A DNA stretch of 64,000 bases from a virus (taxonomy: Duplodnaviria > Heunggongvirae > Uroviricota > Caudoviricetes). The translations under genes were made by a program, and so were the position numbers. The DNA is taken from IMG/VR virus record IMGVR_UViG_3300032030_000013; one strand, 5' to 3'. This document shows, piece by piece, positions 680 through 56,573 of this stretch; the first letter of the stretch is position 1; the number at the start of each line of letters is the position of its first letter. A model generated the notes under the pieces. It made no database searches. It had not been told where the DNA came from and worked only from the letters and a program-made list of their open reading frames with translations.

Positions 680-1690
680 TTAAAATTGCACGCATACCCA
701 TGCATAACCCATATCTCCAGAATCTATAACATATATTTTTCTATCATCTTTAGATTTAAATCTCATTAATCTTGAGTTATCCCCAAATCCTTCTTGTTCA
801 TATTCTGGTGTATAATCCCACCAACTTCCTTTTTTAAATATGGATTCTGAAGCTTCATCTGCGTCAGTATGACCTGATGAGTTTCCATCTAATTCTATAA
901 TGCCAAAATTATAATCATTTATATCTTTAAATAAATCTATTATTTGATTAACAGTAAACATTGGTTCATCACCCCATCCATTTTTAAATTCTTTAATTGC
1001 TGCTTTAATTAAAGCATCACCACCAAGTTCCTTATCATAGTAAAAATCATTTGGTATTTTTATTAAAGATGATTTTGTGTTATAAACTGGTTTTTTAGGT
1101 TTTAATTTTCTTTTTCTTTCCTTTTCTGCCTTTTTTTCTGCTTTTCGTTTTTCTTCATCAGCTTTTAATGTAGCTTTTTCAATTTCTTCAAATTCTGTTG
1201 TATCTAAATTTTCAATCCAATTACTAAATATTTCTTTATTTTCCTTACTTAATGCTATAACTGTAAAACCTTTACCCCAGTCACTGGTACTTGTAAGATA
1301 CAATATGCCTTCATTATCAACAGCATCTCCTTTTTTATAGTTAAACCATAAATCTCTGCAACCACGCCATTCTTCTAATAAACTAGGCATATAATCTTTT
1401 ATATGCTCTGGTACATTACTATATTCTTTAGCTGCATCCATTTTAAATGTTGCAGATGTATCTGATTGTACTATCTCTTTTACAATTAATTCATATTCGC
1501 CAATAACTTTTTGCTTATCATTATCAATATCTAATGCATAAACAGTAAAATTTTTCTTATTTAATATATCTTTAAAAGTAGTTTTTATTTGATTGCCACA
1601 ATCTCTGTCAAAAAGTTTAAATAACTCAGTAGCAGCATTACCCCACTGCATACTTAATTTTTCATTGATGTATGTTAATATGTTTTTCAT
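680..1690 (-). CDS. hypothetical protein, N-terminal MK-x-I-x-x-FI-x-E tag family (MKNILTYINE); K/E-rich basic stretch
   Basis: 336-aa ORF in a tight minus-strand array with a family N-terminus. No recognisable catalytic motif. Confidence 0.5.
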   Translation of the reverse strand: MKNILTYINEKLSMQWGNAATELFKLFDRDCGNQIKTTFKDILNKKNFTVYALDIDNDKQKVIGEYELIVKEIVQSDTSATFKMDAAKEYSNVPEHIKDYMPSLLEEWRGCRDLWFNYKKGDAVDNEGILYLTSTSDWGKGFTVIALSKENKEIFSNWIENLDTTEFEEIEKATLKADEEKRKAEKKAEKERKRKLKPKKPVYNTKSSLIKIPNDFYYDKELGGDALIKAAIKEFKNGWGDEPMFTVNQIIDLFKDINDYNFGIIELDGNSSGHTDADEASESIFKKGSWWDYTPEYEQEGFGDNSRLMRFKSKDDRKIYVIDSGDMGYAWVCVQF

Positions 1691-1885: not shown

Positions 1886-2515
1886 TTATTCTTCTTTTAA
1901 TGAAAATGTTATTGCATCTTTACCATTTTTAATAACTTTTGCAGGAATATTCTTTGTTTTTATTTCTGATAATGTATCACCTTTCCAACTTAATTTAATA
2001 GAATTAAATTTAATAACATTATCTGTAATTGAATAATCAACAAATATATATAAATCTACATCGTTCTTTTGATTATTAGATGAATATTTTACATTTTTAA
2101 TTTGTCCATCTTTATATGATTTTACTTCAATATTAATATTATTTGACTTATTTTCTTCATTATAATATCCAAAATCATAATGTGTTGTATTATCAGGTTC
2201 AATTTTACTCCAATTTTTACCTTCAGAATCTATTAATTCATCTGGCATATTTGATATAATCCAACCTTCTATTATTTGGTTTGCACATCGTTGAATTATT
2301 TTAGTAGATTGTTTTTTGTCGAATTTTGGAGTATTTATAATAATGTTTACTTCAATATGATTAGGATTTTCAGGACCTTTATATTTTTTTTCTTCTGTAT
2401 CAGGTCCATAATAAGTGCCACTTGCCCATTTAGCAGCTTCAGACAATGCATTAATAAATTCTTGTTCAATCTTACTATCGACTGATTCATTTATAAACAT
2501 TTTGAGTTGTTTCAT
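1886..2515 (-). CDS. hypothetical protein, tag family (MKQLKMFINE)
   Basis: 209-aa ORF with a family N-terminus. Confidence 0.5.
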   Translation of the reverse strand: MKQLKMFINESVDSKIEQEFINALSEAAKWASGTYYGPDTEEKKYKGPENPNHIEVNIIINTPKFDKKQSTKIIQRCANQIIEGWIISNMPDELIDSEGKNWSKIEPDNTTHYDFGYYNEENKSNNINIEVKSYKDGQIKNVKYSSNNQKNDVDLYIFVDYSITDNVIKFNSIKLSWKGDTLSEIKTKNIPAKVIKNGKDAITFSLKEE

Positions 2516-5427: not shown

Positions 5428-5486
5428 ATTATAAATTTTATTTGATAAATTAATATAGAACTTAGATTTAAAAATTCAAATAATAT

Positions 5487-5858: not shown

Positions 5859-5859
5859 A

Positions 5860-12904: not shown

Positions 12905-13207
12905 TTATAAGTATTCTTTGAATTTTGGATTAATGCCAAAATCTGTTTCATTTTCATTATATTCTCTTGAAGATAAGACTCTATAATTGCCAGTATCTTC
13001 TAAATCATATATTTCATTATATTGAGCAACTATCCAATATTCTTTATCTTGGTTTTCTTTCTTAAGTTTTTGAATTTCATGTATGCATTTCACAAGATCA
13101 CCAGTGCCCCAATTTGATACTAATGATTCATCTGACATATCTATAATACAGAATCCACTTAAAACTTTATCTATTGCTTCATTAATAAAATTTACTATAT
13201 CTTTCAT
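12905..13207 (-). CDS. hypothetical protein, tag family (MKDIVNFINE)
   Basis: Family N-terminus. 100 aa. Confidence 0.5.
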   Translation of the reverse strand: MKDIVNFINEAIDKVLSGFCIIDMSDESLVSNWGTGDLVKCIHEIQKLKKENQDKEYWIVAQYNEIYDLEDTGNYRVLSSREYNENETDFGINPKFKEYL

Positions 13208-13336
13208 TATTTATTTTATATATGTTTGATATATAATCTTCTATTTTTAATAATTGACGTTTGATAGCATACCTATAAACACCACATTCAACGCATTCTT
13301 TAATAATATTATATTCTTTTATATAATTTTAAATAT

Positions 13337-13555
13337 TTACCAACCCATTTTATCAACTATTTCAATTGCTTGATCAATAACTACTTTAGTTGCACTGGTA
13401 GGTTTTTTTGATGCTACATACATTATTAAATCATATAAGATATTTTCATTACCATCTGAAACATTTGGTTTATTAAAATAAGTATCAAATATTTCTTTTA
13501 AAGAATATTCTGTATATCCTTTGTTTTCATTTATTTTACTTATAATGTCTTTCAT
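13337..13555 (-). CDS. hypothetical small protein, tag family (MKDIISKINE)
   Basis: 72 aa. Confidence 0.4.
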   Translation of the reverse strand: MKDIISKINENKGYTEYSLKEIFDTYFNKPNVSDGNENILYDLIMYVASKKPTSATKVVIDQAIEIVDKMGW

Positions 13556-13571
13556 TTTGCTATTTATTAAT

Positions 13572-14486
13572 TTATTTTGTAACAGATTTCATAAATTTGT
13601 CATCTTTAAGTTTATTCATTGCAGAACCTTCTTTATCAGGCAATGCAGAACTTTTATCATCTTTATCTGTACCACCTTTGAATACTTGTGGCATATTCTT
13701 TCTATCTGGTGCAGTATCAAATGGATAATTATTTGACTTAATATCTAATAGACGTTCAACTATATAATCAACAGTAGTATCATAGTCATAGCATTCTTTT
13801 ATTTTTTCTACATATTGATCTATTAAGTCTTCATCAAGATTATCTTCTATATATTTCTTAATTTTCTTTTTGTCAAATGATTCATCAAAGAAATTAGGAC
13901 CCTTTACATTATTTGATGGAAGTTTACCATTATTATTATTCTTATCAGCTTTAACTGCTGCTATAGTTCCTTGTACTGCCTTAAGCATCTGAATTGGAGA
14001 AATATCACCATCATAATTAAATGATAATATCTTTCCTTTTGGATTTAATGCTATAGCTTGTAACCATGTATGATGACCGTCTATAACGTAATTCTCTCTA
14101 AACGTAACAATAGGCTTATTGATTTCTATAGGATCATTAAAAGTCTTTAACATTGATTCTTTATCAGTCAATGCATATTTTAAAGACTTATCTAAATCTA
14201 TGTTTGCTTGTGTTGGCATTAATTGAGATACTGGAATTTCTTTAACTGAAAATGTTAATTTTGTATCTCCAAGTTCACCTCCAAAACCATCTTCTAATAA
14301 TGCAGCTGATTTTGGATCTTCAAGCATCTTATTTAAAGTTTCTACATAATCATCATACTTCTTATGTTTCAACCACTTCTCAAGCTCCTTACGACGTTGC
14401 TTATTAGAAGCGGTTGAAACTTCACGAGATTCAAATAAGAAACTAGATAAGTTTATATTATCTATGTAATTATTTATAGATTTCAT
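13572..14486 (-). CDS. hypothetical protein, tag family (MKSINNYIDN); weak ParB/Srx-fold-like stretch (YVIDGHHTW), unverified
   Basis: 304 aa. The functional assignment rests on motif resemblance only. Confidence 0.5.
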   Translation of the reverse strand: MKSINNYIDNINLSSFLFESREVSTASNKQRRKELEKWLKHKKYDDYVETLNKMLEDPKSAALLEDGFGGELGDTKLTFSVKEIPVSQLMPTQANIDLDKSLKYALTDKESMLKTFNDPIEINKPIVTFRENYVIDGHHTWLQAIALNPKGKILSFNYDGDISPIQMLKAVQGTIAAVKADKNNNNGKLPSNNVKGPNFFDESFDKKKIKKYIEDNLDEDLIDQYVEKIKECYDYDTTVDYIVERLLDIKSNNYPFDTAPDRKNMPQVFKGGTDKDDKSSALPDKEGSAMNKLKDDKFMKSVTK

Positions 14487-14502
14487 CTAAATATATAATT
14501 TT

Positions 14503-14787
14503 TTATATTTTATATGTTTTTAATTTAGATGCTTTATCTACAATTGCTTCAACTATTGATTTTACATCTTTCTTTTCAGGCTTACAATCTATACGATATA
14601 GAAATGTATATAGTTCATGAAGTGATTGTTCATCATCAAACCACTTATTGACTATTTCTCTGCATGGTACTTCTCCATCAACTTCATTTAATGATATAAT
14701 AGCATGTATGAAAGCATTTTGCCATGAATATGCAAATTTATCTTCATTAATCTGGGTTTCTAATAGTTTTTCTTTAATGTCTTTCAT
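14503..14787 (-). CDS. hypothetical protein (degenerate tag MKDIKEKLLE)
   Basis: 94 aa. Confidence 0.4.
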   Translation of the reverse strand: MKDIKEKLLETQINEDKFAYSWQNAFIHAIISLNEVDGEVPCREIVNKWFDDEQSLHELYTFLYRIDCKPEKKDVKSIVEAIVDKASKLKTYKI

Positions 14788-14792
14788 AATTA

Positions 14793-15152
14793 TTAATATT
14801 CAATTTCTCCACCAAAGTAATTAAGAGCATCACATTCAAATTCTTTACCATCTAATTTGAATGATATTGACCAGCAATTACCAATATCTGTTGATGTTAC
14901 TTTAATTTGTTTATCCCAGTTCTTTTTAAAGAATTCTGCAATTTCTTTACATCCTTTTTCTGGATCTGAATCATCAAAATTATCAAACCAACCATTATCT
15001 AAAAGTCCTTCACAGTCTTCTTGATTAATTATTGATTTATCTGCTTTACCATCTGGAGCTTCGCATCCACAATACCATTGATAAAAATCTGCTAATGTTG
15101 CAGTATCTACATGTTTCTTACCTTCTAAGATAAATTGCTTAATGTCTTTCAT
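14793..15152 (-). CDS. hypothetical protein, tag family (MKDIKQFILE)
   Basis: 119 aa. Confidence 0.5.
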   Translation of the reverse strand: MKDIKQFILEGKKHVDTATLADFYQWYCGCEAPDGKADKSIINQEDCEGLLDNGWFDNFDDSDPEKGCKEIAEFFKKNWDKQIKVTSTDIGNCWSISFKLDGKEFECDALNYFGGEIEY

Positions 15153-15178
15153 AATTATTAAAATATATATTTTTTTAT

Positions 15179-16126
15179 TTAAATTAATTTATCAATATTA
15201 AATGAATAATTTTTAAATTCTTTAATTTGAATATTATTACAAAGAATCTTTGGAACTAATTGATTAAATTTTTTATCAAATTTTTTCCATGATATATTTA
15301 ATTCTTTTTTTATTTCATTAAATGATTTATTACTTTCAAATAATGAATTATATTGTTTTTCTATATATTTTTTATTATCATTATTTATATTTTCTAATCC
15401 TATAATAAATGTTCCTAAATCAAAATATATTTTCCAAATATGATGATCTTTAATTGCTCTTTTAAATTTTTCGTAATCTAAATTATCTGCACTAATATGA
15501 TATTTTTTTATAATATCTTTAATACATAATTCTAAAGATGAAAAATATGCATTACGTTCTTGTGAATTAAAGAAATATTTACATCTACTTAAATATCTTT
15601 TAATATCATTAATATTATTTATATTAATATAAGATTTTTTATAATTTATATTCCAAAGATCAAATATGCCTTTTTTATTTGATGATTTTCTACAATAATC
15701 TTCATATCCATGTAACATTTCATGCAATATTAATTCTATATAATCATCAATATAATCAATAAATGTTTCTTTATCTAAACATAATATTTCAATTTCTAAA
15801 ACATCATTATCAATATTTAAATAACTTGCATTAATTAAATCTTTATTTATTATATCTATTTTAATTTTCTTAAAAAATACATCATAATTATCACAATTAA
15901 TTTCTTGTGAATTAAAATTAGATTTAAGTTCAGTAATTATATGATTTAATACTTTATGAGCATTTTTAAAATTTCCTAATGATTCTTTTAATTGAATATT
16001 TGGGATTATACCACTACCATATTTTGTATATACTATTATAGAAATATGATTGCATAATCTTTCTAATAATTCATTTTCATATAATTTATTAGTATTTTCT
16101 AATATGTAATTATTTAAATCTTTCAT
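15179..16126 (-). CDS. hypothetical protein with HExxH zinc-metallopeptidase-like motif, tag family (MKDLNNYILE)
   Basis: ELILHEMLHGYED contains HEMLH. 315 aa. Confidence 0.5.
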   Translation of the reverse strand: MKDLNNYILENTNKLYENELLERLCNHISIIVYTKYGSGIIPNIQLKESLGNFKNAHKVLNHIITELKSNFNSQEINCDNYDVFFKKIKIDIINKDLINASYLNIDNDVLEIEILCLDKETFIDYIDDYIELILHEMLHGYEDYCRKSSNKKGIFDLWNINYKKSYININNINDIKRYLSRCKYFFNSQERNAYFSSLELCIKDIIKKYHISADNLDYEKFKRAIKDHHIWKIYFDLGTFIIGLENINNDNKKYIEKQYNSLFESNKSFNEIKKELNISWKKFDKKFNQLVPKILCNNIQIKEFKNYSFNIDKLI

Positions 16127-16127
16127 A

Positions 16128-16667
16128 TTATTTTCTATACTCTAATGAGTCTTCATCAAATTTTATTTCAATAGGATAATCTTTATTTGCATCATTAGAT
16201 TCTGCTGCACGGAATATATCTTTAAGTTTTTCCTCAACATTATCATCAGTTACATCAACCATATCAAATCTATCAAAATTAATTATATACTTAAGATTTT
16301 TAATTTTAAAGTAATCTAATTTAACATCATCATTAGTTTTCTTAAGATCAAATTTTGAATCCCATTCGATGAATTCTTTTGGTTCTATATCAATATGCTC
16401 AAATGTATCATATTCAAAATGTACATCTGATATACTGTCATTATTTTTTCCAAAGAATTGTTCTGAATAATCTTGTCCTGATGGTAAAGAATTAAGCCAC
16501 ATATCATCCATATATTGTTGAATATCAGATTCTTGATATGTTTCTGGTGCTTGAAGTATAATTTCTTCAGGTTGAACTAAATATGTAGCTTCAACTTCAT
16601 TTAATCTATAAGCTTCAACAGCTTCAACTATATTATGTTCTAATATATAATTTCTAATATCTTTCAT
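16128..16667 (-). CDS. hypothetical acidic protein, tag family (MKDIRNYILE)
   Basis: 179 aa. Confidence 0.5.
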   Translation of the reverse strand: MKDIRNYILEHNIVEAVEAYRLNEVEATYLVQPEEIILQAPETYQESDIQQYMDDMWLNSLPSGQDYSEQFFGKNNDSISDVHFEYDTFEHIDIEPKEFIEWDSKFDLKKTNDDVKLDYFKIKNLKYIINFDRFDMVDVTDDNVEEKLKDIFRAAESNDANKDYPIEIKFDEDSLEYRK

Positions 16668-16696
16668 TATATTATCTTATATTTAATTGTAATCAC

Positions 16697-17056
16697 TTAT
16701 TTATCTATAGCATAAACACTGTTTAATCCATATCCACAGCAAAAAACAGTATGCCCAGATGTTTTACGTTTTATATATACAAACCATTCAAAATCTCCAA
16801 GCTCGTCTTCATCAAATTCATATAAATCTTTTTTAATGATATCACCTTTATCTTTAATTATCCTAATGTTTTCTGTATAACTTTTATCTTTTATAGATTT
16901 AAATGGTTTACCTATAATAGTTATATCTTCACCATTAGAATCTTTACCTGGAGTTTCTGGTCCTTTGATATTTTCAGGTTCTATATAATTTTTCTTAAAC
17001 TTAGTATTTTTATTTATAATAAGTTTTTCAAATATGAAATTATTTATATCTTTCAT
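16697..17056 (-). CDS. hypothetical protein, extended tag MKDINNFIFEKLIINKNTK
   Basis: Paralog of 17083..17451. Shared stretches ...YIEPE(N/D)I...ETPGKD... and C-terminal Y(G/T)xxxVY(A/G)(I/V)D. Confidence 0.5.
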   Translation of the reverse strand: MKDINNFIFEKLIINKNTKFKKNYIEPENIKGPETPGKDSNGEDITIIGKPFKSIKDKSYTENIRIIKDKGDIIKKDLYEFDEDELGDFEWFVYIKRKTSGHTVFCCGYGLNSVYAIDK

Positions 17057-17082
17057 TTTATATAACTATTATTTATATTTGA

Positions 17083-17451
17083 TTATTCATCTACCCCGTA
17101 AACACCTTCAGGGCCGTATGTATAACAGTTTAATTCTTTATCACCTTTATGAGCGGCATATACGAAATATGTATCATCATCATAATCATTTAAATTATCT
17201 ATATCTGCTAAATCGTTATATACTACATATTTTGATTTTCGTATATATCTAAGTGTTTCTAAATAATTTTGATCTTTTGGTTTTGTTGTAAATGGTTTTC
17301 CTACAATAACAACATCATCTCCAAAGTAATCTTTACCTGGAGTTTCCATATCTTCTATATCTTCTGGCTCTATATAATCTCTTTTAGATGATATTTTAGT
17401 GTTCTTATTGATGATTAGTTTTTCATTAATCGAATCAACTATTGATTTCAT
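17083..17451 (-). CDS. hypothetical protein, extended tag MKSIVDSINEKLIINKNTK; tandem paralog of 16697..17056
   Basis: 122 aa. Similar throughout to the neighbouring gene. Confidence 0.5.
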   Translation of the reverse strand: MKSIVDSINEKLIINKNTKISSKRDYIEPEDIEDMETPGKDYFGDDVVIVGKPFTTKPKDQNYLETLRYIRKSKYVVYNDLADIDNLNDYDDDTYFVYAAHKGDKELNCYTYGPEGVYGVDE

Positions 17452-17457
17452 ATTTAA

Positions 17458-17835
17458 TTATTCACCTTTATTTATAATTTCGTTTATAATATCATATGCG
17501 TGAATCCATAAAGCTTGAGCTATGTTTACTTCTTTACACTTATATTTATCATCATTAGCAATCATATCTAAAAATTTTTGTTCAAATGTTAAATAAGAAG
17601 GTAATTCTTCATTTTCATATGCTTGTTGTAAATCATCAATATCTTCATATCCTGATAATTCATCTAAAATTCTTTCTGGTTTTACTTTAGATTCTTTCAA
17701 TGCTTTCTTTGTGAACTTAATCATATCAGATTTAGAAATATCTTTACATGACCAATAATCTTCACCAGTACTGCTCATTTTAATATTTTTATTTATAATT
17801 AATTTTTCAGATATGAAATTATTAATATTTTTCAT
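17458..17835 (-). CDS. hypothetical protein, extended tag MKNINNFISEKLIINKNIK
   Basis: 125 aa. Confidence 0.5.
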   Translation of the reverse strand: MKNINNFISEKLIINKNIKMSSTGEDYWSCKDISKSDMIKFTKKALKESKVKPERILDELSGYEDIDDLQQAYENEELPSYLTFEQKFLDMIANDDKYKCKEVNIAQALWIHAYDIINEIINKGE

Positions 17836-18050
17836 TAAATATCTTTAAAATATTTTTTGAATTCTTTAGAAGATATACCTATTTGATCTATAAGCCACCA
17901 ATTATCATTAATTTTTGATGCTTTATATTCTGTATCAACTTTAAATGTCTTAGTTCCTGTCTTGCGTTCTATTGTAAGTTCTTTAATGCATTTAACATCA
18001 TGGCATTCTGAATAATCAGTTTGTTTTAAAGATTCAATAATATCTTTCAT
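17835..18050 (-). CDS. hypothetical small protein (degenerate tag MKDIIESLKQ)
   Basis: 71 aa. Confidence 0.4.
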   Translation of the reverse strand: MKDIIESLKQTDYSECHDVKCIKELTIERKTGTKTFKVDTEYKASKINDNWWLIDQIGISSKEFKKYFKDI

Positions 18051-18397
18051 AGTTTACGATTAATCATATATATTGTTTGTGCTAAAACTTCAATCATTGA
18101 TTGTTTTCCGATTGTAGCTAAACTGTATGTATTGATAACATCTCTTTGTGTTATTCCATTATCTCTTGTAAGAATATGATCTATAAGATAATTATTCATT
18201 GTATCCCATTGATCTTTCAAATCACCTTTCCACAAACGTTGTTCAATTTCTTCCATTGTGTAATTTGTATTATTATCTTTATCTATGGCATATTTTTTAA
18301 TCCATTCTTTATCTTCATCAGATAATTTTTTTACAAGAGATGCCCATTTATTGTGACAATCTTTACTTTCATTAATGAAGTTTGTAATATTTTTCAT
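18047..18397 (-). CDS. hypothetical protein, tag family (MKNITNFINE)
   Basis: 116 aa. Confidence 0.5.
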   Translation of the reverse strand: MKNITNFINESKDCHNKWASLVKKLSDEDKEWIKKYAIDKDNNTNYTMEEIEQRLWKGDLKDQWDTMNNYLIDHILTRDNGITQRDVINTYSLATIGKQSMIEVLAQTIYMINRKL

Positions 18398-18418
18398 TTA
18401 TATTATCAATATATTTAT

Positions 18419-18796
18419 TTACCAACCACATTTATCAGAATTATTATAGTCCCATTCAATCATATAATCCTCTTCTTCTTTTGTCAAGTCTTCACCTTCA
18501 TTACTTATTGTCTTAAGAAGATTACCAATAATAAACTTATAAAGACGTTTTCTATCATCAGTAGATAAATTTCCAGATTTAGCAGCCTTTAATGTTGCAG
18601 TTGCCAATTTAGATACAACTGATGATTTCTCAAGTGTTTCAATTTTAAAATCACCTGATTTATGTTTCTTTACAAGATTCTGTGCTAATGCCCAATATTG
18701 TTTATAAATATTTTCATTATTATCTAATTCCATGCAAGCATTGAATATAACATGATTTGCATTAGATTCCATTATGAATTCTTTAATATCTTTCAT
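18419..18796 (-). CDS. hypothetical protein, tag family (MKDIKEFIME)
   Basis: 125 aa. Confidence 0.5.
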   Translation of the reverse strand: MKDIKEFIMESNANHVIFNACMELDNNENIYKQYWALAQNLVKKHKSGDFKIETLEKSSVVSKLATATLKAAKSGNLSTDDRKRLYKFIIGNLLKTISNEGEDLTKEEEDYMIEWDYNNSDKCGW

Positions 18797-18798
18797 AA

Positions 18799-19059
18799 TT
18801 ATTTTAATTTTACATATATATTTACAGAATCCTCAAAACTTTCCATTGGTTTTAATTTTAAAACTTTTTCTGTTGCTTCTCCAAAGAAATCTTTATCTTT
18901 TTTAATTTCTTCAATAGTTGCAAATTCAATTATTTTATCTTCAATATTTATGATAAATATATCTGGATCTTTAATTCCTTTACAATCTGTAGACCAAATA
19001 GTATTTTTAATTTGTTCTTCAGAGTTCATTTCAGTTATAAAATTATTAATATCTTTCAT
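18799..19059 (-). CDS. hypothetical protein, tag family (MKDINNFITE)
   Basis: 86 aa. Confidence 0.45.
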   Translation of the reverse strand: MKDINNFITEMNSEEQIKNTIWSTDCKGIKDPDIFIINIEDKIIEFATIEEIKKDKDFFGEATEKVLKLKPMESFEDSVNIYVKLK

Positions 19060-19082
19060 TACTCTTCATCATATATATATTT

Positions 19083-30281: not shown

Positions 30282-32066
30282 TTAGATGATATCGAACTCT
30301 GAATCAACAACCATTGTGAAATATGCGAGTTCTGGGAAGAAGCCAGCTTCAGCGATTGCATAACGGCTGTTAACCAACATCTTAGGAGCCATAGTTCCTT
30401 CAGCAGTAATACTAATAGTATCTGCAAGAATATAAGGCATAAAGATTACACCAGGTTCGTTACCAGTACCCTTACGACCGATACAGATACGAGTATCATT
30501 CCAATCCATGTAAGGATCTACATAAACTTGGAGACCAGCAACAGTACCTGCGTGGTATAAGTTCTGAGTATTAGCTTGAGACATTGTGTTCAAGAATGGA
30601 GCTACAACGTAACCAGATACATCTTGTAATGCAGAAGCAATCTTACCGTTAGTAACGATCCATGTTGGACGGCCACGACGACCTACCAATTGGATTAAGT
30701 TAGCAGCAGCTAAGATACGGCTCATGATACGACGTTGACGTGTAGAAAGATTTTCAGCAGAAGTATTAACTTCTGAGTTCTTAATACCTGTCCAAGTTGG
30801 TTTGTGATCATATCCGTAGATATCTGTGAAGTGAGGTACACCAGCATAAGCTTGAGCCATAGAAATTGTAGAACCAGTCTTACCCATCCACAAGTTCAAA
30901 TCAACACCCTGACGAGCCTTTTGTTGAGCAGCATTAGTAACACCAAGTGCGAATACTCTTTCAAGGATACGTTGGTTGATATGTTGAGTGATTTCGTTTT
31001 GAAGAGCTTCCATAACTTTACCTACAGCATCTACGCCATATAATGGAAGATCTTGTAACTGTTGACGAGTAACAGTACCAGTTACTTCATAAGCACCCAT
31101 TTGGATCCACTTGCTGAATAAACGAAGACCGATTACATTACCTGTACCAGTTTCATTCTGAGCACGTGTCATTGAATTCTTAGAACCATCGAAGAAGTTT
31201 GCGAAACCATCTACTAAATCAACAGAAGTCTGTACGAAGTCAGCTTCAACCTTTTGAGCAGGAACACCTGTAGAAGCATTAGCAGCAGTAAGAGTGATAG
31301 TAACACTACCGATTACTACAGAAGTAGCAGCGTCGAATTCTTCACGGATTGAGTGATTAGCATCTGAACACTTAACAACTTTTACAAGTGGGCAAGCATC
31401 CATACGACCTAATGAAATGAACTTACCTTCAAATCCACCTACAGTTACAGTATCATCAGCTTTAACTGTTGGAGTTGCAGCTTCCATACCTTGACGGATT
31501 GTTTGGATCTGAGCAAGTGTAAGACCCTTGATCTTAACATAGATTGGTTTGTTTTCATTAAGATCACCCTTACCATCGAATGAAGTTTCGTTTACACGAC
31601 CTAACTTACCACCAGCATATGGGAAGTCCATGTAAGTTAACATAGCCCAAGGACCCTTAGCAGGGATAACTGGAACTAATTCAAGACCAATAGTTAACAA
31701 TGCAACGTTAAGAGCCATTGGTAATGTTGATACAGGAATATCACCTGAACCTGGAGTTTGACCCCAGAATGAACCTGTTGGATTAGCTTGGTTATATGGA
31801 GCTGTGCTCATTGGATCTAATTGACTTGGAGCAGCAATATTACCCATACCTGTAGTGTTCATTGGAGTAGTATAGATAGGACCAACACCTGGATAAGTTG
31901 TAGCGTTAGTAACTACTTGACCACCATTAATTCCAAGTTGAGATTCGTGAATTTCATGAATAGCTGCGTACTGAGACACCCAGTTAAGTTTTTCCTGGTC
32001 TGTAACATTGAAGTTTTCTTTCAACATCTTCTCCCATGTCTGTACACCATTTTGTTCATTAAACAT
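30282..32066 (-). CDS. major capsid protein (T4 gp23 family)
   Basis: C-terminal PTWIVTNGKIASALQDVSGYVVAPF...LQVYVDPYMD...GRKGTGNEPGVIFMPYILAD parallels T4 gp23 GNFIIASRNVVNVLASVDTGISYAAQG...YRVYIDQYAK...GYKGPNEMDAGIYYAPYVAL (recall-based). Higher GC. Follows the protease-scaffold gene. Confidence 0.8.
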   Translation of the reverse strand: MFNEQNGVQTWEKMLKENFNVTDQEKLNWVSQYAAIHEIHESQLGINGGQVVTNATTYPGVGPIYTTPMNTTGMGNIAAPSQLDPMSTAPYNQANPTGSFWGQTPGSGDIPVSTLPMALNVALLTIGLELVPVIPAKGPWAMLTYMDFPYAGGKLGRVNETSFDGKGDLNENKPIYVKIKGLTLAQIQTIRQGMEAATPTVKADDTVTVGGFEGKFISLGRMDACPLVKVVKCSDANHSIREEFDAATSVVIGSVTITLTAANASTGVPAQKVEADFVQTSVDLVDGFANFFDGSKNSMTRAQNETGTGNVIGLRLFSKWIQMGAYEVTGTVTRQQLQDLPLYGVDAVGKVMEALQNEITQHINQRILERVFALGVTNAAQQKARQGVDLNLWMGKTGSTISMAQAYAGVPHFTDIYGYDHKPTWTGIKNSEVNTSAENLSTRQRRIMSRILAAANLIQLVGRRGRPTWIVTNGKIASALQDVSGYVVAPFLNTMSQANTQNLYHAGTVAGLQVYVDPYMDWNDTRICIGRKGTGNEPGVIFMPYILADTISITAEGTMAPKMLVNSRYAIAEAGFFPELAYFTMVVDSEFDII

Positions 32067-32183
32067 ATTATTTAAGTTGAAATTTATTTGTTATTCTCTT
32101 TTGAGATAAATTAATTTTATATAAAAATAAATATTTTCTTTCCTAATAGAAAATATATGCAATTTCCTTATTAGTTATTAAAT

Positions 32184-33911
32184 TTAGCAATTTCTACGAA
32201 GAGCTTTCATCTTTGCAACAATTGAATTCTGATAAGCTTCCATAGGATTTTCCTTAGCTTCATTTACATAAACAGGATTTTGTTGATTGAAATCAACGTT
32301 AGCCCAGAACTTCTCAATTTGACCTTCCTTCATGAAGTCATACATACGAGAACTTCTAATAATTTCTTGTTGACGAGCTTCTGTAAGAAGTTCCCAAGAA
32401 GGACGATATTCAGCAGGCATGTTTTCTACAACATAAACTCCTTTATATTTATTGTTCTTTCCTTCTTCTTCAACAATTTTGTTAACTGATGCATTATCGT
32501 CATTTGCAATTGATTCAAGTAAACTATCAATTTCTTCTAAACGACCAGCCTTTTGAGATTCCATAAATGCAGAAACATTCTCATTTACTTTATTTTCAAT
32601 AGTTTGTGATTGTTCAGGAGCAAATTCTTCAGTAATCCATCCTTCTACTACTGGAGCAAATTCTTCAGTAATCCATCCTTGAATTTCAGGTGAGAATTCC
32701 TCTACGATCCAATTTTGTACTTCAGGTGAGAATTCTTCAACTACCCAGTTCTGAACTTCTGGAGCAAATTCTTCAACTACCCAGTTCTGAACTTCTGGAG
32801 CAAATTCTTCAACTATCCATTGTTGTACCATTGGAGCGAATTCTTCATTAACCCACTTTTGAACTTCAGGATTATATTCTTCATTAATCCAATTTTCTAC
32901 GCCTGTAGCAATAGTTTCCATTGATTCATTAACTTTAGTATCAATCTTTTCATCAATATCTTCGTTAATTTCATTAGATACTTCTTGCTTGAATTCTGGA
33001 GCAAATTCTTCCTTTACCCATTGTTCAATAGCTTCGTAATTAACTGGCTTAACTGATTCTCTAGTCTCTTCTAAACTTTCTTTTGCAACATGCAATTCAG
33101 CTTGGAGAGATTCTACTTTTTTAGCAAGCTCTTCAACAGCTTCTCTAAGTTTTTCCATATCGGTATTATCATTGCCATTATTTTTGTTATCTTCTTTATC
33201 ATTATCCTTATCTTTAGAGTCATCTTTATCCTTGTCATCTTCCTTAGGTTTATCCTTTGGTTTATCATCTTCCTTAGGTTCTTCTTTAGGTTCTTTATCT
33301 TTATCCTTATCATCATCATCAGATAAAAGATCATCAGAACCTTCAACGATTACCCAAGTTTCATTGTTACCTTCTTCTAAACCTTCATTAAGACATTCAA
33401 GTTTTTGATTCTCTTTAAGAGTAAGTTTGGCTTGACTAAAACCTGGAGTACCGACCAAATCGTAAGTCTTAATAGTAGATAACGTTACACGACCTTCATT
33501 AGTGATAGTACCTGCACCTCTTGAAGATATATACAATGGAAGACCGCCTTCTACAATTGCTTGAGCAATTTTTCCACTTGGAGTATTCAAAAGCAAGATA
33601 TCACCAGTGATGGTTCCATCTTCATTCATTTGAATAGATTCAATCTTGTGAGATACATTTTGTAAATTAATATTCATTGAGTTTGGGTGTTCCAATTCAC
33701 CAGGACAACCTGATTCTTTGATAACTTTTTGTAAAGACTCAACCATCTGCTTATAATTTTCTTTATCATAAACACGATTATTTTGATTCTTTATACCACA
33801 AACACCAAATACACCATGAAGACGCATACCGTTGCTACCTTTACTTTCAACGATTTCAAGATCTGAAACTTTACCAAGAGTCTCATAAATCAAGCAACGT
33901 TTATCTGTCAT
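32184..33911 (-). CDS. prohead protease - scaffold fusion protein
   Basis: N-terminal about 190 aa (LHGVFGVCGIKNQNNRVY ... LEHPNS ... ISSRGAG) resembles phage prohead serine protease domains. Then a D/K-rich low-complexity linker, then a coiled-coil and acidic repeat region. Immediately upstream of the MCP. Confidence 0.55.
   Translation of the reverse strand: MTDKRCLIYETLGKVSDLEIVESKGSNGMRLHGVFGVCGIKNQNNRVYDKENYKQMVESLQKVIKESGCPGELEHPNSMNINLQNVSHKIESIQMNEDGTITGDILLLNTPSGKIAQAIVEGGLPLYISSRGAGTITNEGRVTLSTIKTYDLVGTPGFSQAKLTLKENQKLECLNEGLEEGNNETWVIVEGSDDLLSDDDDKDKDKEPKEEPKEDDKPKDKPKEDDKDKDDSKDKDNDKEDNKNNGNDNTDMEKLREAVEELAKKVESLQAELHVAKESLEETRESVKPVNYEAIEQWVKEEFAPEFKQEVSNEINEDIDEKIDTKVNESMETIATGVENWINEEYNPEVQKWVNEEFAPMVQQWIVEEFAPEVQNWVVEEFAPEVQNWVVEEFSPEVQNWIVEEFSPEIQGWITEEFAPVVEGWITEEFAPEQSQTIENKVNENVSAFMESQKAGRLEEIDSLLESIANDDNASVNKIVEEEGKNNKYKGVYVVENMPAEYRPSWELLTEARQQEIIRSSRMYDFMKEGQIEKFWANVDFNQQNPVYVNEAKENPMEAYQNSIVAKMKALRRNC
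32625..32895 (-). repeat. in-frame tandem 36-nt repeats (about 7 copies) inside the scaffold gene, encoding W(I/V)(V/T)EEFAPEVQN
   Basis: Two copies are nucleotide-identical (32741-32776 and 32777-32812). Flanking copies are diverged. Confidence 0.75.
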
Positions 33912-49749: not shown

Positions 49750-50610
49750 TTAACAATTTTTAAGCATACCAATTAATTTATCCTGTTGTTTTTTAGATAA
49801 TTCATTCCATGCAGAAAGACAATCATCATAAGTCATATCATCACTCCATGACCAATTATGTGGAATAACATCATCATATGTCTCATCTTCTATATGAGCA
49901 GAACATAAGAACCAATATTTTCCACTCATAAACACATCATTTACACTGTTTATTAATTTAGGAATTACAGGATATAATTCATAATCTAATAAATCATCAT
50001 GATATATACCAAAATATGTATTTGCATTTTTATCATTTAATGCATTTTGAACATCATCTTTAATATCTTTAAAATCTACTGGAGTTTTTTCAAATGGTTT
50101 CATCAACTTAGAATACTTATCATATATTTTATCACTGTCTTCATCATATCCTTGTTGAATCTTTTCCATTTCATCATCTTTTATACATATACGATATTCC
50201 CCATATTTAACATAACTATTATCAATAACATAATCTATGTTATTTTTTTCTAAATAATCTGTAATTTTATTAATTGTTTCATCATCAGTATTATTTATAT
50301 GTATATTAAAATTATATTCTTCATGTTTTTGTTTTTTAGAATCATAATAATTTACATAACCTGCACTACAACCAAAGAAATCATGTTCATTATTTATATC
50401 ACCATTAATTTTTATATTTTTAACTTCTTTTGATAATGGTTTAATATATTTATTATTAAGTAATGTTAATAATTTTTTATAATATTTATTTTCCCATGCC
50501 CAGTGTTCTTTATCTCTTTTAAAAGCAAGATCACCTAATTTACCATCAGCATAACTATTACGTTCGTGTGGGAATTTTGATTCAAATATAAAATCTATAA
50601 TATTTTTCAT
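49750..50610 (-). CDS. hypothetical protein, tag family (MKNIIDFIFE)
   Basis: 286 aa. Confidence 0.5.
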   Translation of the reverse strand: MKNIIDFIFESKFPHERNSYADGKLGDLAFKRDKEHWAWENKYYKKLLTLLNNKYIKPLSKEVKNIKINGDINNEHDFFGCSAGYVNYYDSKKQKHEEYNFNIHINNTDDETINKITDYLEKNNIDYVIDNSYVKYGEYRICIKDDEMEKIQQGYDEDSDKIYDKYSKLMKPFEKTPVDFKDIKDDVQNALNDKNANTYFGIYHDDLLDYELYPVIPKLINSVNDVFMSGKYWFLCSAHIEDETYDDVIPHNWSWSDDMTYDDCLSAWNELSKKQQDKLIGMLKNC

Positions 50611-50654
50611 CTTTATATATTATTTAATATTTTTAATATCATTATATATAAAAA

Positions 50655-50688: not shown

Positions 50689-50715
50689 TCTTTATATAGT
50701 TAACGCTTTAACTAT

Positions 50716-55214: not shown

Positions 55215-55472
55215 TTATCCCATTACAATATCAAACTCAGAATCAGTATTGTTATACTTCTTACCAGTTACATGGTACTTATCTGTGTAAGGCATTGCAG
55301 GTGCGACATACTTGAGAGTTCCCTGCTCACCAATACGGTTTCGTGGAGTTACCTGTACCAGCATGCGACCGTCAGAACACATTGTAATGAACTTAACAGG
55401 ATTACCCAACTTGGTTGTTGCATTACCACCATTCTTGAACTTCTCGAAATTGAAATTGTTTGTCTGCTTCAT
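55215..55472 (-). CDS. hypothetical protein
   Basis: 85 aa. Confidence 0.4.
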   Translation of the reverse strand: MKQTNNFNFEKFKNGGNATTKLGNPVKFITMCSDGRMLVQVTPRNRIGEQGTLKYVAPAMPYTDKYHVTGKKYNNTDSEFDIVMG

Positions 55473-55650: not shown

Positions 55651-56016
55651 TTAACTTTCTTTTTGTTTATTTGAATTCAATATTAATGCTACACACATTG
55701 ATATTTCTGAAGGATGTATGTCATTTACATCAGGTATAAATTGCTTCCAACCAAAATGATCAACAATTTCTTCAAAATCCTTTTGATTTAATTCTTGTAC
55801 ATAATCAAATAAGAACTGTCCTGCACCTTTCCAAAGATCTGCGTCTTTACCAGACCATGCATCTTTTTCTTTATCATATTTACAATCATTATGTTTAGAT
55901 AATTCATCTAAAATTGATTGTATCATATTTACTGCAGGATTTCTATGCAAAGGTTTTCTATCACCTAATCCTGGCGCAGCTCCGCGTTCAACTATATAGT
56001 TATTTAAATCTTTCAT
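55651..56016 (-). CDS. hypothetical protein, tag family (MKDLNNYIVE)
   Basis: 121 aa. Confidence 0.5.
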   Translation of the reverse strand: MKDLNNYIVERGAAPGLGDRKPLHRNPAVNMIQSILDELSKHNDCKYDKEKDAWSGKDADLWKGAGQFLFDYVQELNQKDFEEIVDHFGWKQFIPDVNDIHPSEISMCVALILNSNKQKES

Positions 56017-56048: not shown

Positions 56049-56573
56049 TTAGTATCTATCTGTTATAATGATAGTATCTTTATTGTCTTTAAATATTTTC
56101 TTAACTTTATTGATTCCTAATTCCATATCATCAATTACTTTCTCAGGTATGCAATCATTTCTACGTTTCTTGCAAACATCTTTAGGAGTATCTATAATGA
56201 CTATCTTAACATTAGCACCAGCTTTATTTAACTTACTATAATAGTTTTCAACACGTCCTGCTTTAACATTTGTATTATCAATAACAAAATCTTTGCGTTG
56301 TCTTATAAGTTCATTAATACGTTCATCATTAATTCTAGTCACTTCCTTTTCTTGTTCTTTATCACCTATAGCTTTATGATCATCATCTTTCATAATTCCA
56401 AGTTCAACTCTTATTGAATCTTGATTAATAATTTCAATATTTTTTGGAAGTTCTTCTTTAATATATGTAGACTTACCTGAACCTGGAAGACCAACCATTA
56501 TCCAAACATTAAAAGGATTTTGTTTTTCAAATATATTTAATGATTCTTTTATGTATGTTAAAATTGATTTCAT
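56049..56573 (-). CDS. polynucleotide 5'-kinase (T4 Pnk kinase-domain-like P-loop kinase), tag family N-terminus (MKSILTYIKE)
   Basis: MVGLPGSGKSTYIKEEL, then INQDSIR, then VIDNTNVK, arranged like the T4 PNK kinase domain (GCPGSGKST...NRDDYR...ISDTNLN; recall-based). 174 aa. Confidence 0.55.
   Translation of the reverse strand: MKSILTYIKESLNIFEKQNPFNVWIMVGLPGSGKSTYIKEELPKNIEIINQDSIRVELGIMKDDDHKAIGDKEQEKEVTRINDERINELIRQRKDFVIDNTNVKAGRVENYYSKLNKAGANVKIVIIDTPKDVCKKRRNDCIPEKVIDDMELGINKVKKIFKDNKDTIIITDRY

What the first reader, a model, noticed from the sequence alone, without database searches (positions are those of the whole stretch)
12905..19059. At least 27 unrelated small genes share a 10-residue N-terminal tag M-K-x-(I/L)-x-x-(F/Y)-I-x-E, resembling the T4 capsid-targeting sequence
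Almost every ORF in the 12.9-19.1 kb cluster starts this way: MKDIVNFINE, MKDIKQFILE, MKDLNNYILE, MKDIRNYILE, MKDINNFIFE, MKNINNFISE, MKNITNFINE, MKDIKEFIME, MKDINNFITE and others. The same tag heads genes elsewhere in the window, including 680, 1886 and 49750; the 55.6-62.9 kb cluster is listed in a later finding. The downstream domains are unrelated: a kinase, NTases, an HExxH peptidase, DUF285 repeats and acidic proteins. Codons under the tag differ synonymously between copies, so selection acts on the peptide rather than on a DNA or RNA element. A subset extends to EKLIINKNTK. From memory, the T4 internal proteins IPI-III and Alt carry a 10-residue capsid-targeting sequence (MKTYQEFIAE) that directs packaging into the prohead and is removed by the gp21 protease after (L/I)-x-E. 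The tag here has the same skeleton, M-K-xxxx-F-I-x-E, ending in I-x-E. The phage has T4-family capsid, sheath and tube genes and a prohead protease. Inference: an unusually large arsenal of capsid-packaged, co-injected proteins, likely carrying anti-defence and host-takeover functions.
Basis: partly seen in the sequence, partly recalled or inferred. Interest (0 to 1): 0.85.

Follow-up and report, generated by a model that had tools for sequence, protein, structure and literature searches.

The report
T4-like capsid-targeting tag on many genes
About two dozen unrelated small genes of this uncultured huge phage begin with the same 10-residue peptide, which matches the phage T4 "capsid targeting sequence" position for position, so the phage probably loads an unusually large and fast-changing set of proteins into its head for injection with its DNA.

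Summary
Of 77 predicted genes, 18 start with M-K-x-[ILVM]-x-x-[FYW]-[ILVM]-x-E and 6 more match four of the five positions. The full motif occurs once in 18,320 internal windows. Conservation acts on the peptide: all four Phe/Tyr codons are used and the upstream DNA is not conserved. The cargo parts are unrelated (P-loop kinase, Pol-beta-fold nucleotidyltransferase, DUF285, ORFans).

The conserved positions 4, 7, 8 and 10 are the ones T4 mutagenesis mapped to targeting (4, 7) and processing (8, 10). A matrix built only from the window's tags ranks T4 ipIII, ipII and ipI 3rd, 4th and 6th among 1,219 candidate T4 starts.

The phage has a gp23-family capsid protein and a gp21-type prohead protease with the catalytic His and Ser. 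The protease is fused to a scaffold made of 12-residue repeats that each contain W-[VI]-x-E.

Relatives keep the tag while swapping cargo at syntenic positions. A distant huge phage (LR756500) carries a longer variant with the same F-[LIV]-x-E ending on about 27 genes.

Packaging and cleavage are inferred, not shown. Verdict: a new, greatly expanded variant of the T4 CTS/internal-protein system. Confidence 0.65, interest 0.72.

The parts
12905..13207 (-). Tagged gene, 100 aa, MKDIVNFINE (full motif). The tag is the first 10 codons, at the high-coordinate end.
13337..13555 (-). Tagged gene, 72 aa, MKDIISKINE (4 of 5; position 7 is K).
13572..14486 (-). Tagged gene, 304 aa, MKSINNYIDN (4 of 5; no Glu10). 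Weak, sub-threshold ParB-like nuclease hit.
14503..14787 (-). Tagged gene, 94 aa, MKDIKEKLLE (4 of 5).
14793..15152 (-). Tagged gene, 119 aa, MKDIKQFILE. Acidic.
15179..16126 (-). Tagged gene, 315 aa, MKDLNNYILE. HExxH with E/D is invariant in its family. Fold not recognised.
16128..16667 (-). Tagged gene, 179 aa, MKDIRNYILE. Very acidic (charge about -25).
16697..17056 (-). Tagged gene, 119 aa, long tag MKDINNFIFEKLIINKNTK. Paralogue of 17083.
17083..17451 (-). Tagged gene, 122 aa, long tag MKSIVDSINEKLIINKNTK (4 of 5).
17458..17835 (-). Tagged gene, 125 aa, long tag MKNINNFISEKLIINKNIK.
17835..18050 (-). Weakly tagged gene, 71 aa, MKDIIESLKQ (3 of 5).
18047..18397 (-). Tagged gene, 116 aa, MKNITNFINE.
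18419..18796 (-). Tagged gene, 125 aa, MKDIKEFIME.
18799..19059 (-). Tagged gene, 86 aa, MKDINNFITE.
680..1690 (-). Tagged gene, 336 aa, MKNILTYINE. Preceded by an exact copy of the promoter-like 15-mer at 1712-1726.
1886..2515 (-). Tagged gene, 209 aa, MKQLKMFINE. A 1-mismatch copy of the 15-mer lies at 2670-2684.
49750..50610 (-). Tagged gene, 286 aa, MKNIIDFIFE, inside the structural module. An exact copy of the 15-mer lies at 50643-50657.
55215..55472 (-). Weakly tagged gene, 85 aa, MKQTNNFNFE (3 of 5).
55651..56016 (-). Tagged gene, 121 aa, MKDLNNYIVE.
56049..56573 (-). Tagged P-loop kinase, 174 aa, MKSILTYIKE. The Pfam AAA_33 domain starts at residue 23, so the tag is an N-terminal add-on.
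56570..56992 (-). Tagged gene, 140 aa, long tag MKNLKDIISEKLIINKNTK (4 of 5).
56946..57281 (-). Tagged gene, 111 aa, MKSINEYIYE.
58785..59396 (-). Tagged DUF285-repeat protein, 203 aa, long tag MKQINNFINEKLIINKNIK.
59400..60284 (-). Tagged Pol-beta-fold nucleotidyltransferase, 294 aa, MKSFKNYILE. In the AF2 model the tag is a helix (residues 4-14), residues 12-17 have pLDDT below 50, and a globular domain follows.
60287..60592 (-). Tagged gene, 101 aa, MKSIKDFILE. Its slot holds an unrelated tagged 133-aa gene in the closest relative.
61617..62864 (-). Tagged gene, 415 aa, MKHLRDYIFE. An exact copy of the 15-mer lies at 62894-62908. Its slot holds an unrelated tagged 407-aa gene in the closest relative.
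32184..33911 (-). Prohead protease-scaffold fusion, 575 aa. Residues 1-170 form a gp21-type protease domain with GELEHP (His) and ISSRGAG (Ser). The protein's own N-terminus is MTDKRCLIYE. The C-terminal half carries about 9 copies of a 12-residue repeat, W-[VI]-x-E-E-F-A-P-E-V-Q-N.
30282..32066 (-). Major capsid protein, gp23 family, 594 aa. The N-terminal region has an invariant L15-x-E17 and a conserved [IM]-x-E41, which are candidate maturation sites.
32116..32130 (-). Promoter-like 15-mer TTATTTTTATATAAA upstream of the capsid gene. The same element lies upstream of tagged genes 680, 49750 and 61617.

Best explanation
The 10-residue N-terminus M-K-x-(I/L)-x-x-(F/Y)-I-x-E is a capsid-targeting propeptide of the T4 type.

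Proposed mechanism, all of it inferred:
- The tag forms a short amphipathic helix, with its hydrophobic face at residues 4, 7 and 8. The helix is tethered by a flexible linker to cargo domains of any fold.
- During prohead assembly it docks the cargo onto the scaffolding core. Here the core is the repeat-rich C-terminal half of the protease-scaffold protein.
- After shell completion, the gp21-type prohead protease cuts after Glu10 (P3 = Ile, P1 = Glu). The same (I/V/L)-x-E motif recurs in every scaffold repeat and in the capsid-protein propeptide.
- The freed cargo stays in the head and enters the host with the DNA.

The phage has expanded this address label to at least 24 unrelated genes in 64 kb. 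The genes lie in clusters whose cargo turns over quickly between close relatives while the label is kept.

Shown here: the motif and its statistics; peptide-level selection; modularity; statistical equivalence to the T4 CTS; presence of the protease, scaffold and capsid components; cargo turnover; and a lineage-specific variant in a distant relative.

Inferred: docking, cleavage, packaging, injection and the role of the cargo.
For: 1. The motif occurs at 18 + 6 of 77 N-termini, against 1 and 49 of 18,320 internal windows.
2. Information content is confined to positions 1, 2, 4, 7, 8 and 10 and stops at residue 10. In T4, residues 4 and 7 govern targeting and 8 and 10 govern processing (PMC9026906).
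3. Blind test: a PSSM built from 24 window tags ranks T4 ipIII, ipII and ipI at 3, 4 and 6, and gp24 at 19, of 1,219 T4 starts. Only 0.3-0.8% of starts in T4 and in three other phages reach the T4 CTS score.
4. The protease is 29% identical to T4 gp21, with E=1e-8 for the pairwise comparison. The best PDB hit is gp21 (5JBL). The catalytic His and Ser are conserved. It matches phrog_207 at 6e-40.
5. The scaffold half of the protease carries 12 [FYW][ILVM]xE motifs, or 20.9 per 1,000 aa against about 2 elsewhere. They recur every 12 residues and are conserved in 11 relatives. The capsid propeptide has an invariant L-x-E17 and a conserved [IM]-x-E41.
6. The tag is modular. The kinase domain starts at residue 23. 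In the AF2 model the tag helix is separated from the nucleotidyltransferase domain by a low-confidence linker. Cargo proteins are unrelated to one another.
7. 168 distinct tagged ORFs were found in related metagenomic phage contigs. The family of 59400 keeps positions 2, 4, 7, 8 and 10 while the other tag positions vary.
8. In the closest relative (capsid protein 96% identical), two syntenic slots hold unrelated cargo with the same tag. This resembles the variable IP loci of T-even phages.
9. LR756500 (capsid protein 37% identical) carries a 13-residue variant, MKYI[KL]EYxEF[LIV]xE, on about 27 of 638 genes. It has the same aromatic-aliphatic-x-Glu ending.
10. The 15-mer TTATTTTTATATAWA has four exact hits, all intergenic and on the coding strand. 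One is upstream of the capsid gene and three are upstream of tagged genes. In relatives it precedes the capsid, sheath, tube and protease genes and 15 tagged genes.
Against: - There are no virion data. Packaging and cleavage are not demonstrated for any member of this clade.
- Most cargo proteins are acidic, whereas T4 internal proteins are basic and lie within the DNA.
- The number of tagged species is far larger than in any characterised phage.
- Some cargo looks like cytoplasmic enzymes. The tagged kinase sits close to an untagged RNA ligase, which is odd if the two act together.
- The main 12.9-19.1 kb cluster has no exact copy of the structural-gene promoter element. It may be transcribed with the upstream sigma-factor-like gene, so its timing is unknown.
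- The promoter element could be a general promoter rather than a late one.
- The absolute PSSM score of the T4 CTS is low: 4.8, against 18.7-29.1 for the window tags.
- Related cultured phage PTm1 (75 kb examined) and Lak-A2 (100 kb examined) show no such gene set. There is therefore no proteome to lean on.
Confidence: 0.65

Rival explanations
1. The tag is a docking helix for a common partner other than the prohead. Candidates are a phage chaperone or hub, a phage-built intracellular compartment, or a shared host target. The likeness to the T4 CTS would then be convergence on a generic amphipathic helix.
For: - The tag is an amphipathic helix on a flexible linker.
- The cargo is acidic and enzyme-like.
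- Timing of expression of the main cluster is unknown.
Against: - This does not explain the near-invariant Glu at position 10, the sharp end of conservation there, or the shared [aromatic]-[aliphatic]-x-Glu ending in the LR756500 variant. That ending is the T4 gp21 cleavage motif.
- It does not explain why the PSSM picks out the T4 internal proteins.
- No compartment-forming genes were seen in the window.
Confidence: 0.13
2. The tag is a protease-removable propeptide with no targeting role. It would keep the effectors inactive, or mark them for turnover, until the prohead protease or another Glu-specific protease removes it.
For: - The I-x-E ending matches the gp21-type cleavage motif.
- In the HExxH family some homologues keep positions 2-8 but lose Glu10. 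The N-terminal part and the cleavage site can therefore be separated.
Against: - A 10-residue helix on a flexible linker is unlikely to inhibit folds as different as a kinase, a nucleotidyltransferase and DUF285 repeats.
- Positions 4 and 7, which in T4 affect targeting and not cleavage, are as conserved as 8 and 10.
- T4 gp21 is active only inside proheads (established knowledge of T4 assembly).
Confidence: 0.08
3. All tagged genes descend from one rapidly diverging paralogue family, and the N-terminus is the only part still recognisable.
For: - The genes are clustered, small and tandem. One pair (16697 and 17083) is paralogous.
- There are DUF285 duplicates in the relative.
Against: - The cargo includes clearly different folds with their own families: AAA_33 P-loop, Pol-beta nucleotidyltransferase, DUF285, and an all-helical HExxH protein.
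- The Pfam kinase domain begins only after the tag.
- Even under common descent, retention of just these 10 residues would need selection for a function.
Confidence: 0.06
4. The conserved 5' end works at the nucleic-acid level. It could be a translation-initiation or operator element, or a recombination cassette that shuffles genes, like the PeSLs of T4-type phages.
For: - Codon 2 is AAA in 23 of 24 tags, against 69% genome-wide. Position 8 prefers ATA.
- Most genes lack a Shine-Dalgarno sequence.
- Hairpin-plus-promoter cassettes flank some tagged genes.
- Cargo is exchanged between relatives.
- PeSL-mediated shuffling is known (PMC2839356).
Against: - All synonymous and conservative codon alternatives are used at the conserved residues. 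Phe/Tyr is encoded by TTT, TTC, TAT and TAC, and Ile/Leu by six codons. The upstream DNA does not align.
- Synonymous usage is mostly genomic.
- 53 untagged genes in the same window are presumably translated without it.
- The variant in LR756500 keeps the amino-acid pattern, not the nucleotide sequence.
Confidence: 0.04

Closest known systems
[quoted passage not shown]
   Same: - A 10-residue extreme N-terminal label, M-K-x-(hydrophobic)-x-x-F-I-x-E. Five of ten residues are identical to the consensus here.
- The functional positions 4, 7, 8 and 10 coincide.
- A subset carries a longer 17-19-residue form; T4 propeptides are 10-19 residues.
- A gp21-family protease and a gp23-family shell are present.
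- Cargo proteins are otherwise unrelated, and the loci vary between close relatives.
   Different: - Scale: at least 24 tagged genes in 64 kb, against three or four in all of T4.
- The cargo is mostly acidic and includes enzymes, not small basic DNA-associated proteins.
- Protease and scaffold are fused in one 575-aa protein with 12-residue W-[VI]-x-E repeats.
- The phage is only distantly related to T4. The capsid protein is about 21% identical over part of its length.
- There is no experimental evidence here.
N-terminal propeptides of head and ejection proteins in giant phages phiKZ, 201phi2-1 and SPN3US (PMC5694885, PMC7411985, PMC10052503)
   Same: - Many head-internal proteins are processed by a gp21-related protease with Glu at P1.
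- The propeptides are inferred to target proteins into the prohead.
- These are huge phages with complex heads.
   Different: - Those propeptides are mostly longer than 100 residues, are not a shared short label, and use an A/S/G-x-E motif.
- Here there is a uniform 10-residue label with I-x-E, as in T4.
Encapsulin cargo-loading peptides
   Same: A short conserved terminal peptide on unrelated cargo proteins directs them into an HK97-fold shell. This is an analogy drawn from general knowledge.
   Different: They are usually C-terminal, bind the shell directly, are not removed by a protease, and involve no DNA or injection. Not tested here.
Variant tag of uncultured huge phage LR756500
   Same: - A shared N-terminal label on about 27 otherwise different genes, ending in F-[LIV]-x-E.
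- The same protease-scaffold-capsid gene order.
   Different: - It is 13 residues (MKYI[KL]EYxEF[LIV]xE), one helical turn longer.
- Its scaffold repeats differ in sequence (Y-[VI]-A-x-E type).

Membership tests
T4-type CTS / internal-protein system | Short peptide (10-19 aa) at the extreme N-terminus, shared by otherwise unrelated proteins | tested here: met
   18 full plus 6 near matches at N-termini. Cargo proteins are unrelated beyond residue 20.
T4-type CTS / internal-protein system | Functional residues at positions 4 and 7 (targeting) and 8 and 10 (processing), ending in (L/I)-x-E | tested here: met
   Information content peaks at positions 2, 4, 7, 8 and 10 and drops after 10. T4 mapping is from PMC9026906.
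T4-type CTS / internal-protein system | Sequence likeness to the T4 CTS beyond chance | tested here: met
   The window-derived PSSM ranks ipIII, ipII and ipI at 3, 4 and 6 of 1,219 T4 starts. In T4 and three other phages, 0.3-0.8% of starts reach that score.
T4-type CTS / internal-protein system | gp21-family prohead protease with catalytic His and Ser | tested here: met
   phrog_207 at 6e-40; best PDB hit 5JBL; 29% identity to gp21 with GELEHP and SSRGAG aligned to GELNHP and SSRGLG.
T4-type CTS / internal-protein system | Scaffold core and gp23-family shell protein carrying the same cleavage motif | tested here: inconclusive
   Pfam Gp23 at 5.5e-29. L-x-E17 is invariant and [IM]-x-E41 is conserved. 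Scaffold repeats contain W-[VI]-x-E. The motifs are present, but cleavage has not been shown.
T4-type CTS / internal-protein system | Tagged proteins physically present in the capsid | not testable with these tools
   Needs the virion proteome of a clade member. None is cultured, and no such paper was found.
T4-type CTS / internal-protein system | Tag removed by the prohead protease after Glu10 | not testable with these tools
   Needs N-terminal sequencing, semi-tryptic MS, or an in vitro cleavage assay.
T4-type CTS / internal-protein system | Expression overlapping head assembly | tested here: inconclusive
   The shared 15-mer lies upstream of the capsid gene and of tagged genes 680, 49750 and 61617. 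Near-copies lie upstream of the sheath and of 46562, 48985 and 1886, and it is conserved in relatives. A TATATAA-like octamer is enriched upstream of tagged genes (p=0.003 and 0.009), but that pattern was chosen post hoc. The main cluster has no exact copy.
T4-type CTS / internal-protein system | Cargo loci hypervariable between close relatives | tested here: met
   Two syntenic slots hold unrelated tagged genes, while flanking genes are 74-95% identical.
T4 internal proteins proper (IPI-III) | Small, basic, DNA-associated cargo | tested here: not met
   19 of 26 cargo parts have pI below 6.5 and several are strongly acidic. The label works like the T4 CTS, but the cargo proteins are not IP homologues.
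phiKZ/SPN3US-type head propeptides | Long (often more than 100 aa) individual propeptides with an A/S/G-x-E cleavage motif | tested here: not met
   The label is 10 (to 19) residues, uniform, and has Ile at P3.
PeSL-like DNA shuffling cassette or mRNA operator | Conservation at the nucleotide level, including non-coding flanks | tested here: not met
   Upstream DNA is not conserved, and synonymous and conservative codon alternatives are used.

The most novel reading that the evidence does not exclude
The T4 'address label' for head-internal proteins is ancient and portable. Uncultured huge phages have expanded it so that dozens of unrelated, rapidly exchanged proteins per genome are pre-loaded into the capsid and delivered with the DNA. 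Counts are at least 24 in this 64-kb window and about 27 with a lineage-specific variant in LR756500. The tag would then be a simple sequence handle for listing the injected effector proteome of uncultured phages, and a ready-made cargo-loading signal for engineering large capsids.
Probability: 0.55. Interest if true: 0.85.

Novelty: new variant of a known kind. Interest (0 to 1): 0.72.

Why it matters
Huge phages carry hundreds of genes of unknown function, and none of this clade is cultured. If the tag is a capsid-loading signal, a 10-residue motif marks roughly a third of the genes in this window as proteins delivered ready-made into the host, which is where immediate counter-defence or takeover factors are expected to act. 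That would turn an undifferentiated set of ORFans into a defined candidate list.

It would also show that the T4 targeting code, with its functional positions 4, 7, 8 and 10, survives across very deep divergence of the head module. The code appears to be tuned by lineage, as in the 13-residue LR756500 variant.

Cross-packaging experiments in T4 become an obvious test. Practically, the tag offers a cargo-loading signal for large capsids. T4 gene 61.1 also emerges as an unnoticed candidate CTS-bearing protein.

Tried and rejected
- Megablast of the cluster, and tblastn of a 25-aa tag peptide, against GenBank phages found nothing. The tag cannot be traced in cultured phages this way.
- Related cultured and named phages were scanned for a shared N-terminus: PTm1 (75 kb) and Lak-A2 (100 kb). 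No multi-gene tag was found, only one Lak pair, M(N/I)K.IK.L.ESLFD. No virion proteome is therefore available as support. PAU was not scanned.
- I suspected that the tagged nucleotidyltransferase 59400 has an orthologue in LR756500 carrying that phage's own tag (L058:17941). BLASTP shows similarity only over the tag and the following 'EGG', so I dropped the claim.
- The idea that the tag is a copy of one scaffold repeat (N-W-V-x-E-E-F against N-F-I-x-E-K-L) is suggestive. However, LR756500 and PTm1 have different repeats with no clear match to their tags. I keep it only as speculation.
- I looked by eye for depletion of internal cleavage motifs in the cargo. The numbers are too small to say anything.
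- Literature searches for a description of such tags in huge, jumbo or Lak/Jug phages found none.

Full report
**What is in the window.** The window is 24-38% G+C. Almost all genes are on the minus strand, apart from a short plus-strand block at 20.4-24.8 kb. It comes from an uncultured huge phage.
- The 594-aa protein at 30282-32066 is a gp23-family major capsid protein (Pfam Gp23, 5.5e-29).
- Its nearest GenBank relatives are the 462-kb metagenomic phage LR756500 (36.6% identity), Sphingomonas phage PAU, Tenacibaculum phages pT24 and PTm1, and the Lak megaphages.
- IMG/VR holds closer relatives on contigs of up to 435 kb, with capsid identity of 56-96%.
- Other genes include a sheath, a tube, topoisomerase II, a helicase, two sigma-factor-like proteins and an RNA ligase.

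Of 77 predicted genes, 18 begin with M-K-x-[ILVM]-x-x-[FYW]-[ILVM]-x-E. Six more match four of the five scored positions, and two match three. In 12905-19059 there are 14 genes: 9 full, 4 near and 1 weak.
- In 18,320 internal windows of the same proteins, the full motif occurs once and four-of-five matches occur 49 times. The motif is therefore specific to N-termini and far beyond chance.
- Information content peaks at positions 1, 2, 4, 7, 8 and 10 and collapses after residue 10.
- Five genes carry a longer form, ...E-K-L-I-I-N-K-N-(T/I)-K.

**Selection acts on the peptide.**
- Position 7 uses TTT, TTC, TAT and TAC (7, 5, 5 and 4 times). Positions 4 and 8 use six Ile/Leu codons. The 70 nt upstream do not align.
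- Synonymous usage under the tag is close to genomic usage. The exceptions are AAA at codon 2, ATA at codon 8, and a mild excess of C-ending codons at positions 3 and 7.

**The tag is modular.**
- Beyond residue 20, only one pair of tagged proteins is similar.
- The cargo includes an AAA_33 P-loop kinase whose Pfam domain begins at residue 23, and a DUF285-repeat protein.
- It also includes a Pol-beta-fold nucleotidyltransferase. In its AF2 model (pLDDT 88), the tag is a helix at residues 4-14. Residues 12-17 have pLDDT below 50. A globular domain follows that matches Pol beta and Pol lambda.
- One all-helical protein has an invariant HExxH, but I could not assign it to any peptidase family or fold.
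- Most cargo proteins are acidic.

**Comparison with T4.**
- The T4 CTS is MKTYQEFIAE (PMC8442874). It targets IPs and foreign proteins into the scaffolding core and is removed by gp21 (PMC3012670, PMC5694885).
- Suppressor mutagenesis of the IPIII CTS placed targeting mainly at residues 4 and 7 and processing at residues 8 and 10. T4 propeptides are 10-19 residues long (PMC9026906). These are the conserved positions here, and the two lengths also correspond.
- As a blind test, I built a position matrix from 24 window tags. I then scored every ATG followed by at least 50 open codons in T4 positions 1-150,000, which gave 1,219 starts.
- Rank 1 was T4 gene 61.1 (MKTFKEFIKE). Ranks 3 and 4 were ipIII and ipII. 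Rank 6 was ipI, and rank 19 was gp24.
- In PTm1, Lak-A2 and LR756500, only 0.6-0.8% of starts reach the T4 CTS score and none reaches 15. In the window, 25 starts do.
- The T4 CTS scores far lower than the window's own tags. Still, picking two independent IP labels (ipII and ipIII share one) into the top six has a chance probability of about 2e-5.

**The processing machinery is present.**
- The 575-aa protein at 32184-33911 matches the head-maturation-protease family (phrog_207, 6e-40).
- Its N-terminal 170 residues are 29% identical to T4 gp21, with GELEHP and ISSRGAG aligned to the catalytic GELNHP and VSSRGLG.
- Its own N-terminus is MTDKRCLIYE, with I-Y-E at positions 8-10. This recalls LIE-9 of gp21.
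- The C-terminal half is a scaffold-like region with about nine 12-residue repeats, W-[VI]-x-E-E-F-A-P-E-V-Q-N.
- It holds 12 [FYW][ILVM]xE motifs, or 20.9 per 1,000 residues against about 2 elsewhere. The repeat is conserved in 11 relatives.
- The capsid protein's N-terminal region has an invariant L15-x-E17 and a conserved [IM]-x-E41 in eight relatives.
- A non-significant local alignment places I-H-E41|S opposite the known T4 gp23 site L-T-E65|A.
- So the ending of the tag is the motif that recurs where a gp21-type protease is expected to cut. Cleavage itself has not been shown.

**Evolutionary behaviour.**
- The tag is kept throughout the clade. I found 168 distinct tagged ORFs in related IMG/VR loci, with consensus MKNLNNYIIEKLHLNKDIK. 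That consensus is biased towards the long form by the search pattern.
- In the 205-member family of the 59400 nucleotidyltransferase, positions 2, 4, 7, 8 and 10 are held while positions 3, 5, 6 and 9 vary.
- In the HExxH family, some distant members lose Glu10 but keep positions 2-8.
- The closest relative has a capsid protein 96% identical, and flanking genes are 74-95% identical. Even so, the tagged 415-aa and 101-aa genes are replaced at the same positions by unrelated tagged genes of 407 and 133 aa. This mirrors the variable IP loci of T-even phages.
- LR756500 was scanned over about 440 of its 462 kb. About 27 of 638 genes there start with a different shared label, MKYI[KL]EYxEF[LIV]xE. 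It is three residues longer but ends in the same aromatic-aliphatic-x-Glu.
- Its protease-scaffold and capsid genes are arranged in the same way, with different scaffold repeats.
- PTm1 (75 kb) and Lak-A2 (100 kb) showed no such gene set.

**Expression.**
- The 15-mer TTATTTTTATATAWA has four exact hits, all intergenic and on the coding strand. One is upstream of the capsid gene and three are upstream of tagged genes 680, 49750 and 61617.
- One-mismatch copies precede the sheath, two other structural-module genes, and tagged gene 1886.
- In relatives it precedes the capsid, sheath, tube and protease genes and 15 tagged genes.
- A TATATAA-like octamer is enriched upstream of tagged genes in both the window (p=0.003) and LR756500 (p=0.009). 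That pattern was chosen after looking at the data.
- This fits co-expression with head genes but does not prove late timing. The main cluster may instead be transcribed with the sigma-factor-like gene at 19083-20252.

**Interpretation.** The best-supported reading is a T4-type capsid-targeting propeptide. An amphipathic helix docks diverse cargo onto the scaffold core, is cut after Glu10 by the gp21-type protease, and leaves the cargo in the head for co-injection.
- Points against: there are no virion data, the cargo is acidic and numerous, cytoplasmic-type enzymes are among the cargo, and the main cluster's timing is uncertain.
- The rivals are a docking helix for another partner, a mere pro-peptide, a single divergent paralogue family, and a nucleic-acid element. 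Each explains fewer observations, and the last is contradicted by the codon data.
- I found no published description of such tags in huge phages.
- I classify it as a new and greatly expanded variant of a known kind.

Noticed in passing
L062 (T4 NC_000866) 18966-19130, minus strand: T4 gene 61.1 (54 aa, annotated hypothetical) starts MKTFKEFIKE. It is the top-scoring T4 start under the window-derived tag matrix, above the known internal proteins. It may be an unrecognised CTS-bearing, capsid-targeted T4 protein.
   Followed up: no
window 32184-33911 (-), residues about 290-440: The prohead protease is fused to a scaffold-like region made of about nine 12-residue repeats, W-[VI]-x-E-E-F-A-P-E-V-Q-N (36-nt DNA period). 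An acidic, Lys-rich linker precedes them. The repeat is conserved in 11 relatives. PTm1 and LR756500 have different repeats at the same place.
   Followed up: partly
window 34077-35120, 35245-37044, 37073-39226 (-): Three consecutive proteins in the structural module share an N-terminal domain of about 80 residues (about 40% identity; M-x-K-H-I-K-V-N-Q...N-V-P..L-I-T-K-L-Y) and then diverge. This looks like a common attachment domain on different fibre or decoration proteins.
   Followed up: partly
window 55529-55660: Three tandem direct copies (39-nt spacing; 100%, 100% and 87% identity to the reference copy) of an AT-rich unit lie in the intergenic region upstream of the weakly tagged gene 55215-55472.
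   Followed up: partly
window 56049-56573 and 57285-58751 (-): A tagged AAA_33 (polynucleotide-kinase-like) protein lies two genes away from an untagged protein with a weak RNA-ligase hit. This may be an RNA-repair pair like T4 PseT/RnlA, but only the kinase carries the tag.
   Followed up: no
window 6384-7469 and 19083-20252 (-): There are two sigma-factor-like genes (phrog_351). The second lies directly upstream of the main tagged cluster, with no intervening promoter-like 15-mer.
   Followed up: no
window-wide; examples at 1691-1885, 50611-50715, 62865-62973: Most genes lack a Shine-Dalgarno-like sequence. Several intergenic regions combine a G+C-rich hairpin and T-run with the 15-mer TTATTTTTATATAWA just downstream. 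This is a terminator-plus-promoter cassette reminiscent of the T4-type PeSLs.
   Followed up: partly
L052 (Lak-A2) 5455-6153 and 13970-15355, minus strand: Two Lak-A2 genes share an N-terminus, M(N/I)K.IK.L(M/L)ESLFD(E/D), that contains L-x-E. This may be a different, much smaller tag set in Lak phages.
   Followed up: no
window 39231-46337 (-): The 2,368-aa protein in the structural module starts MGLYTGSLNE, with L-N-E at positions 8-10 and Tyr at position 4, as in the T4 CTS. Together with the protease's LIYE-10, this may mean that bona fide head proteins carry a degenerate form of the label. The count is not statistically significant.
   Followed up: no
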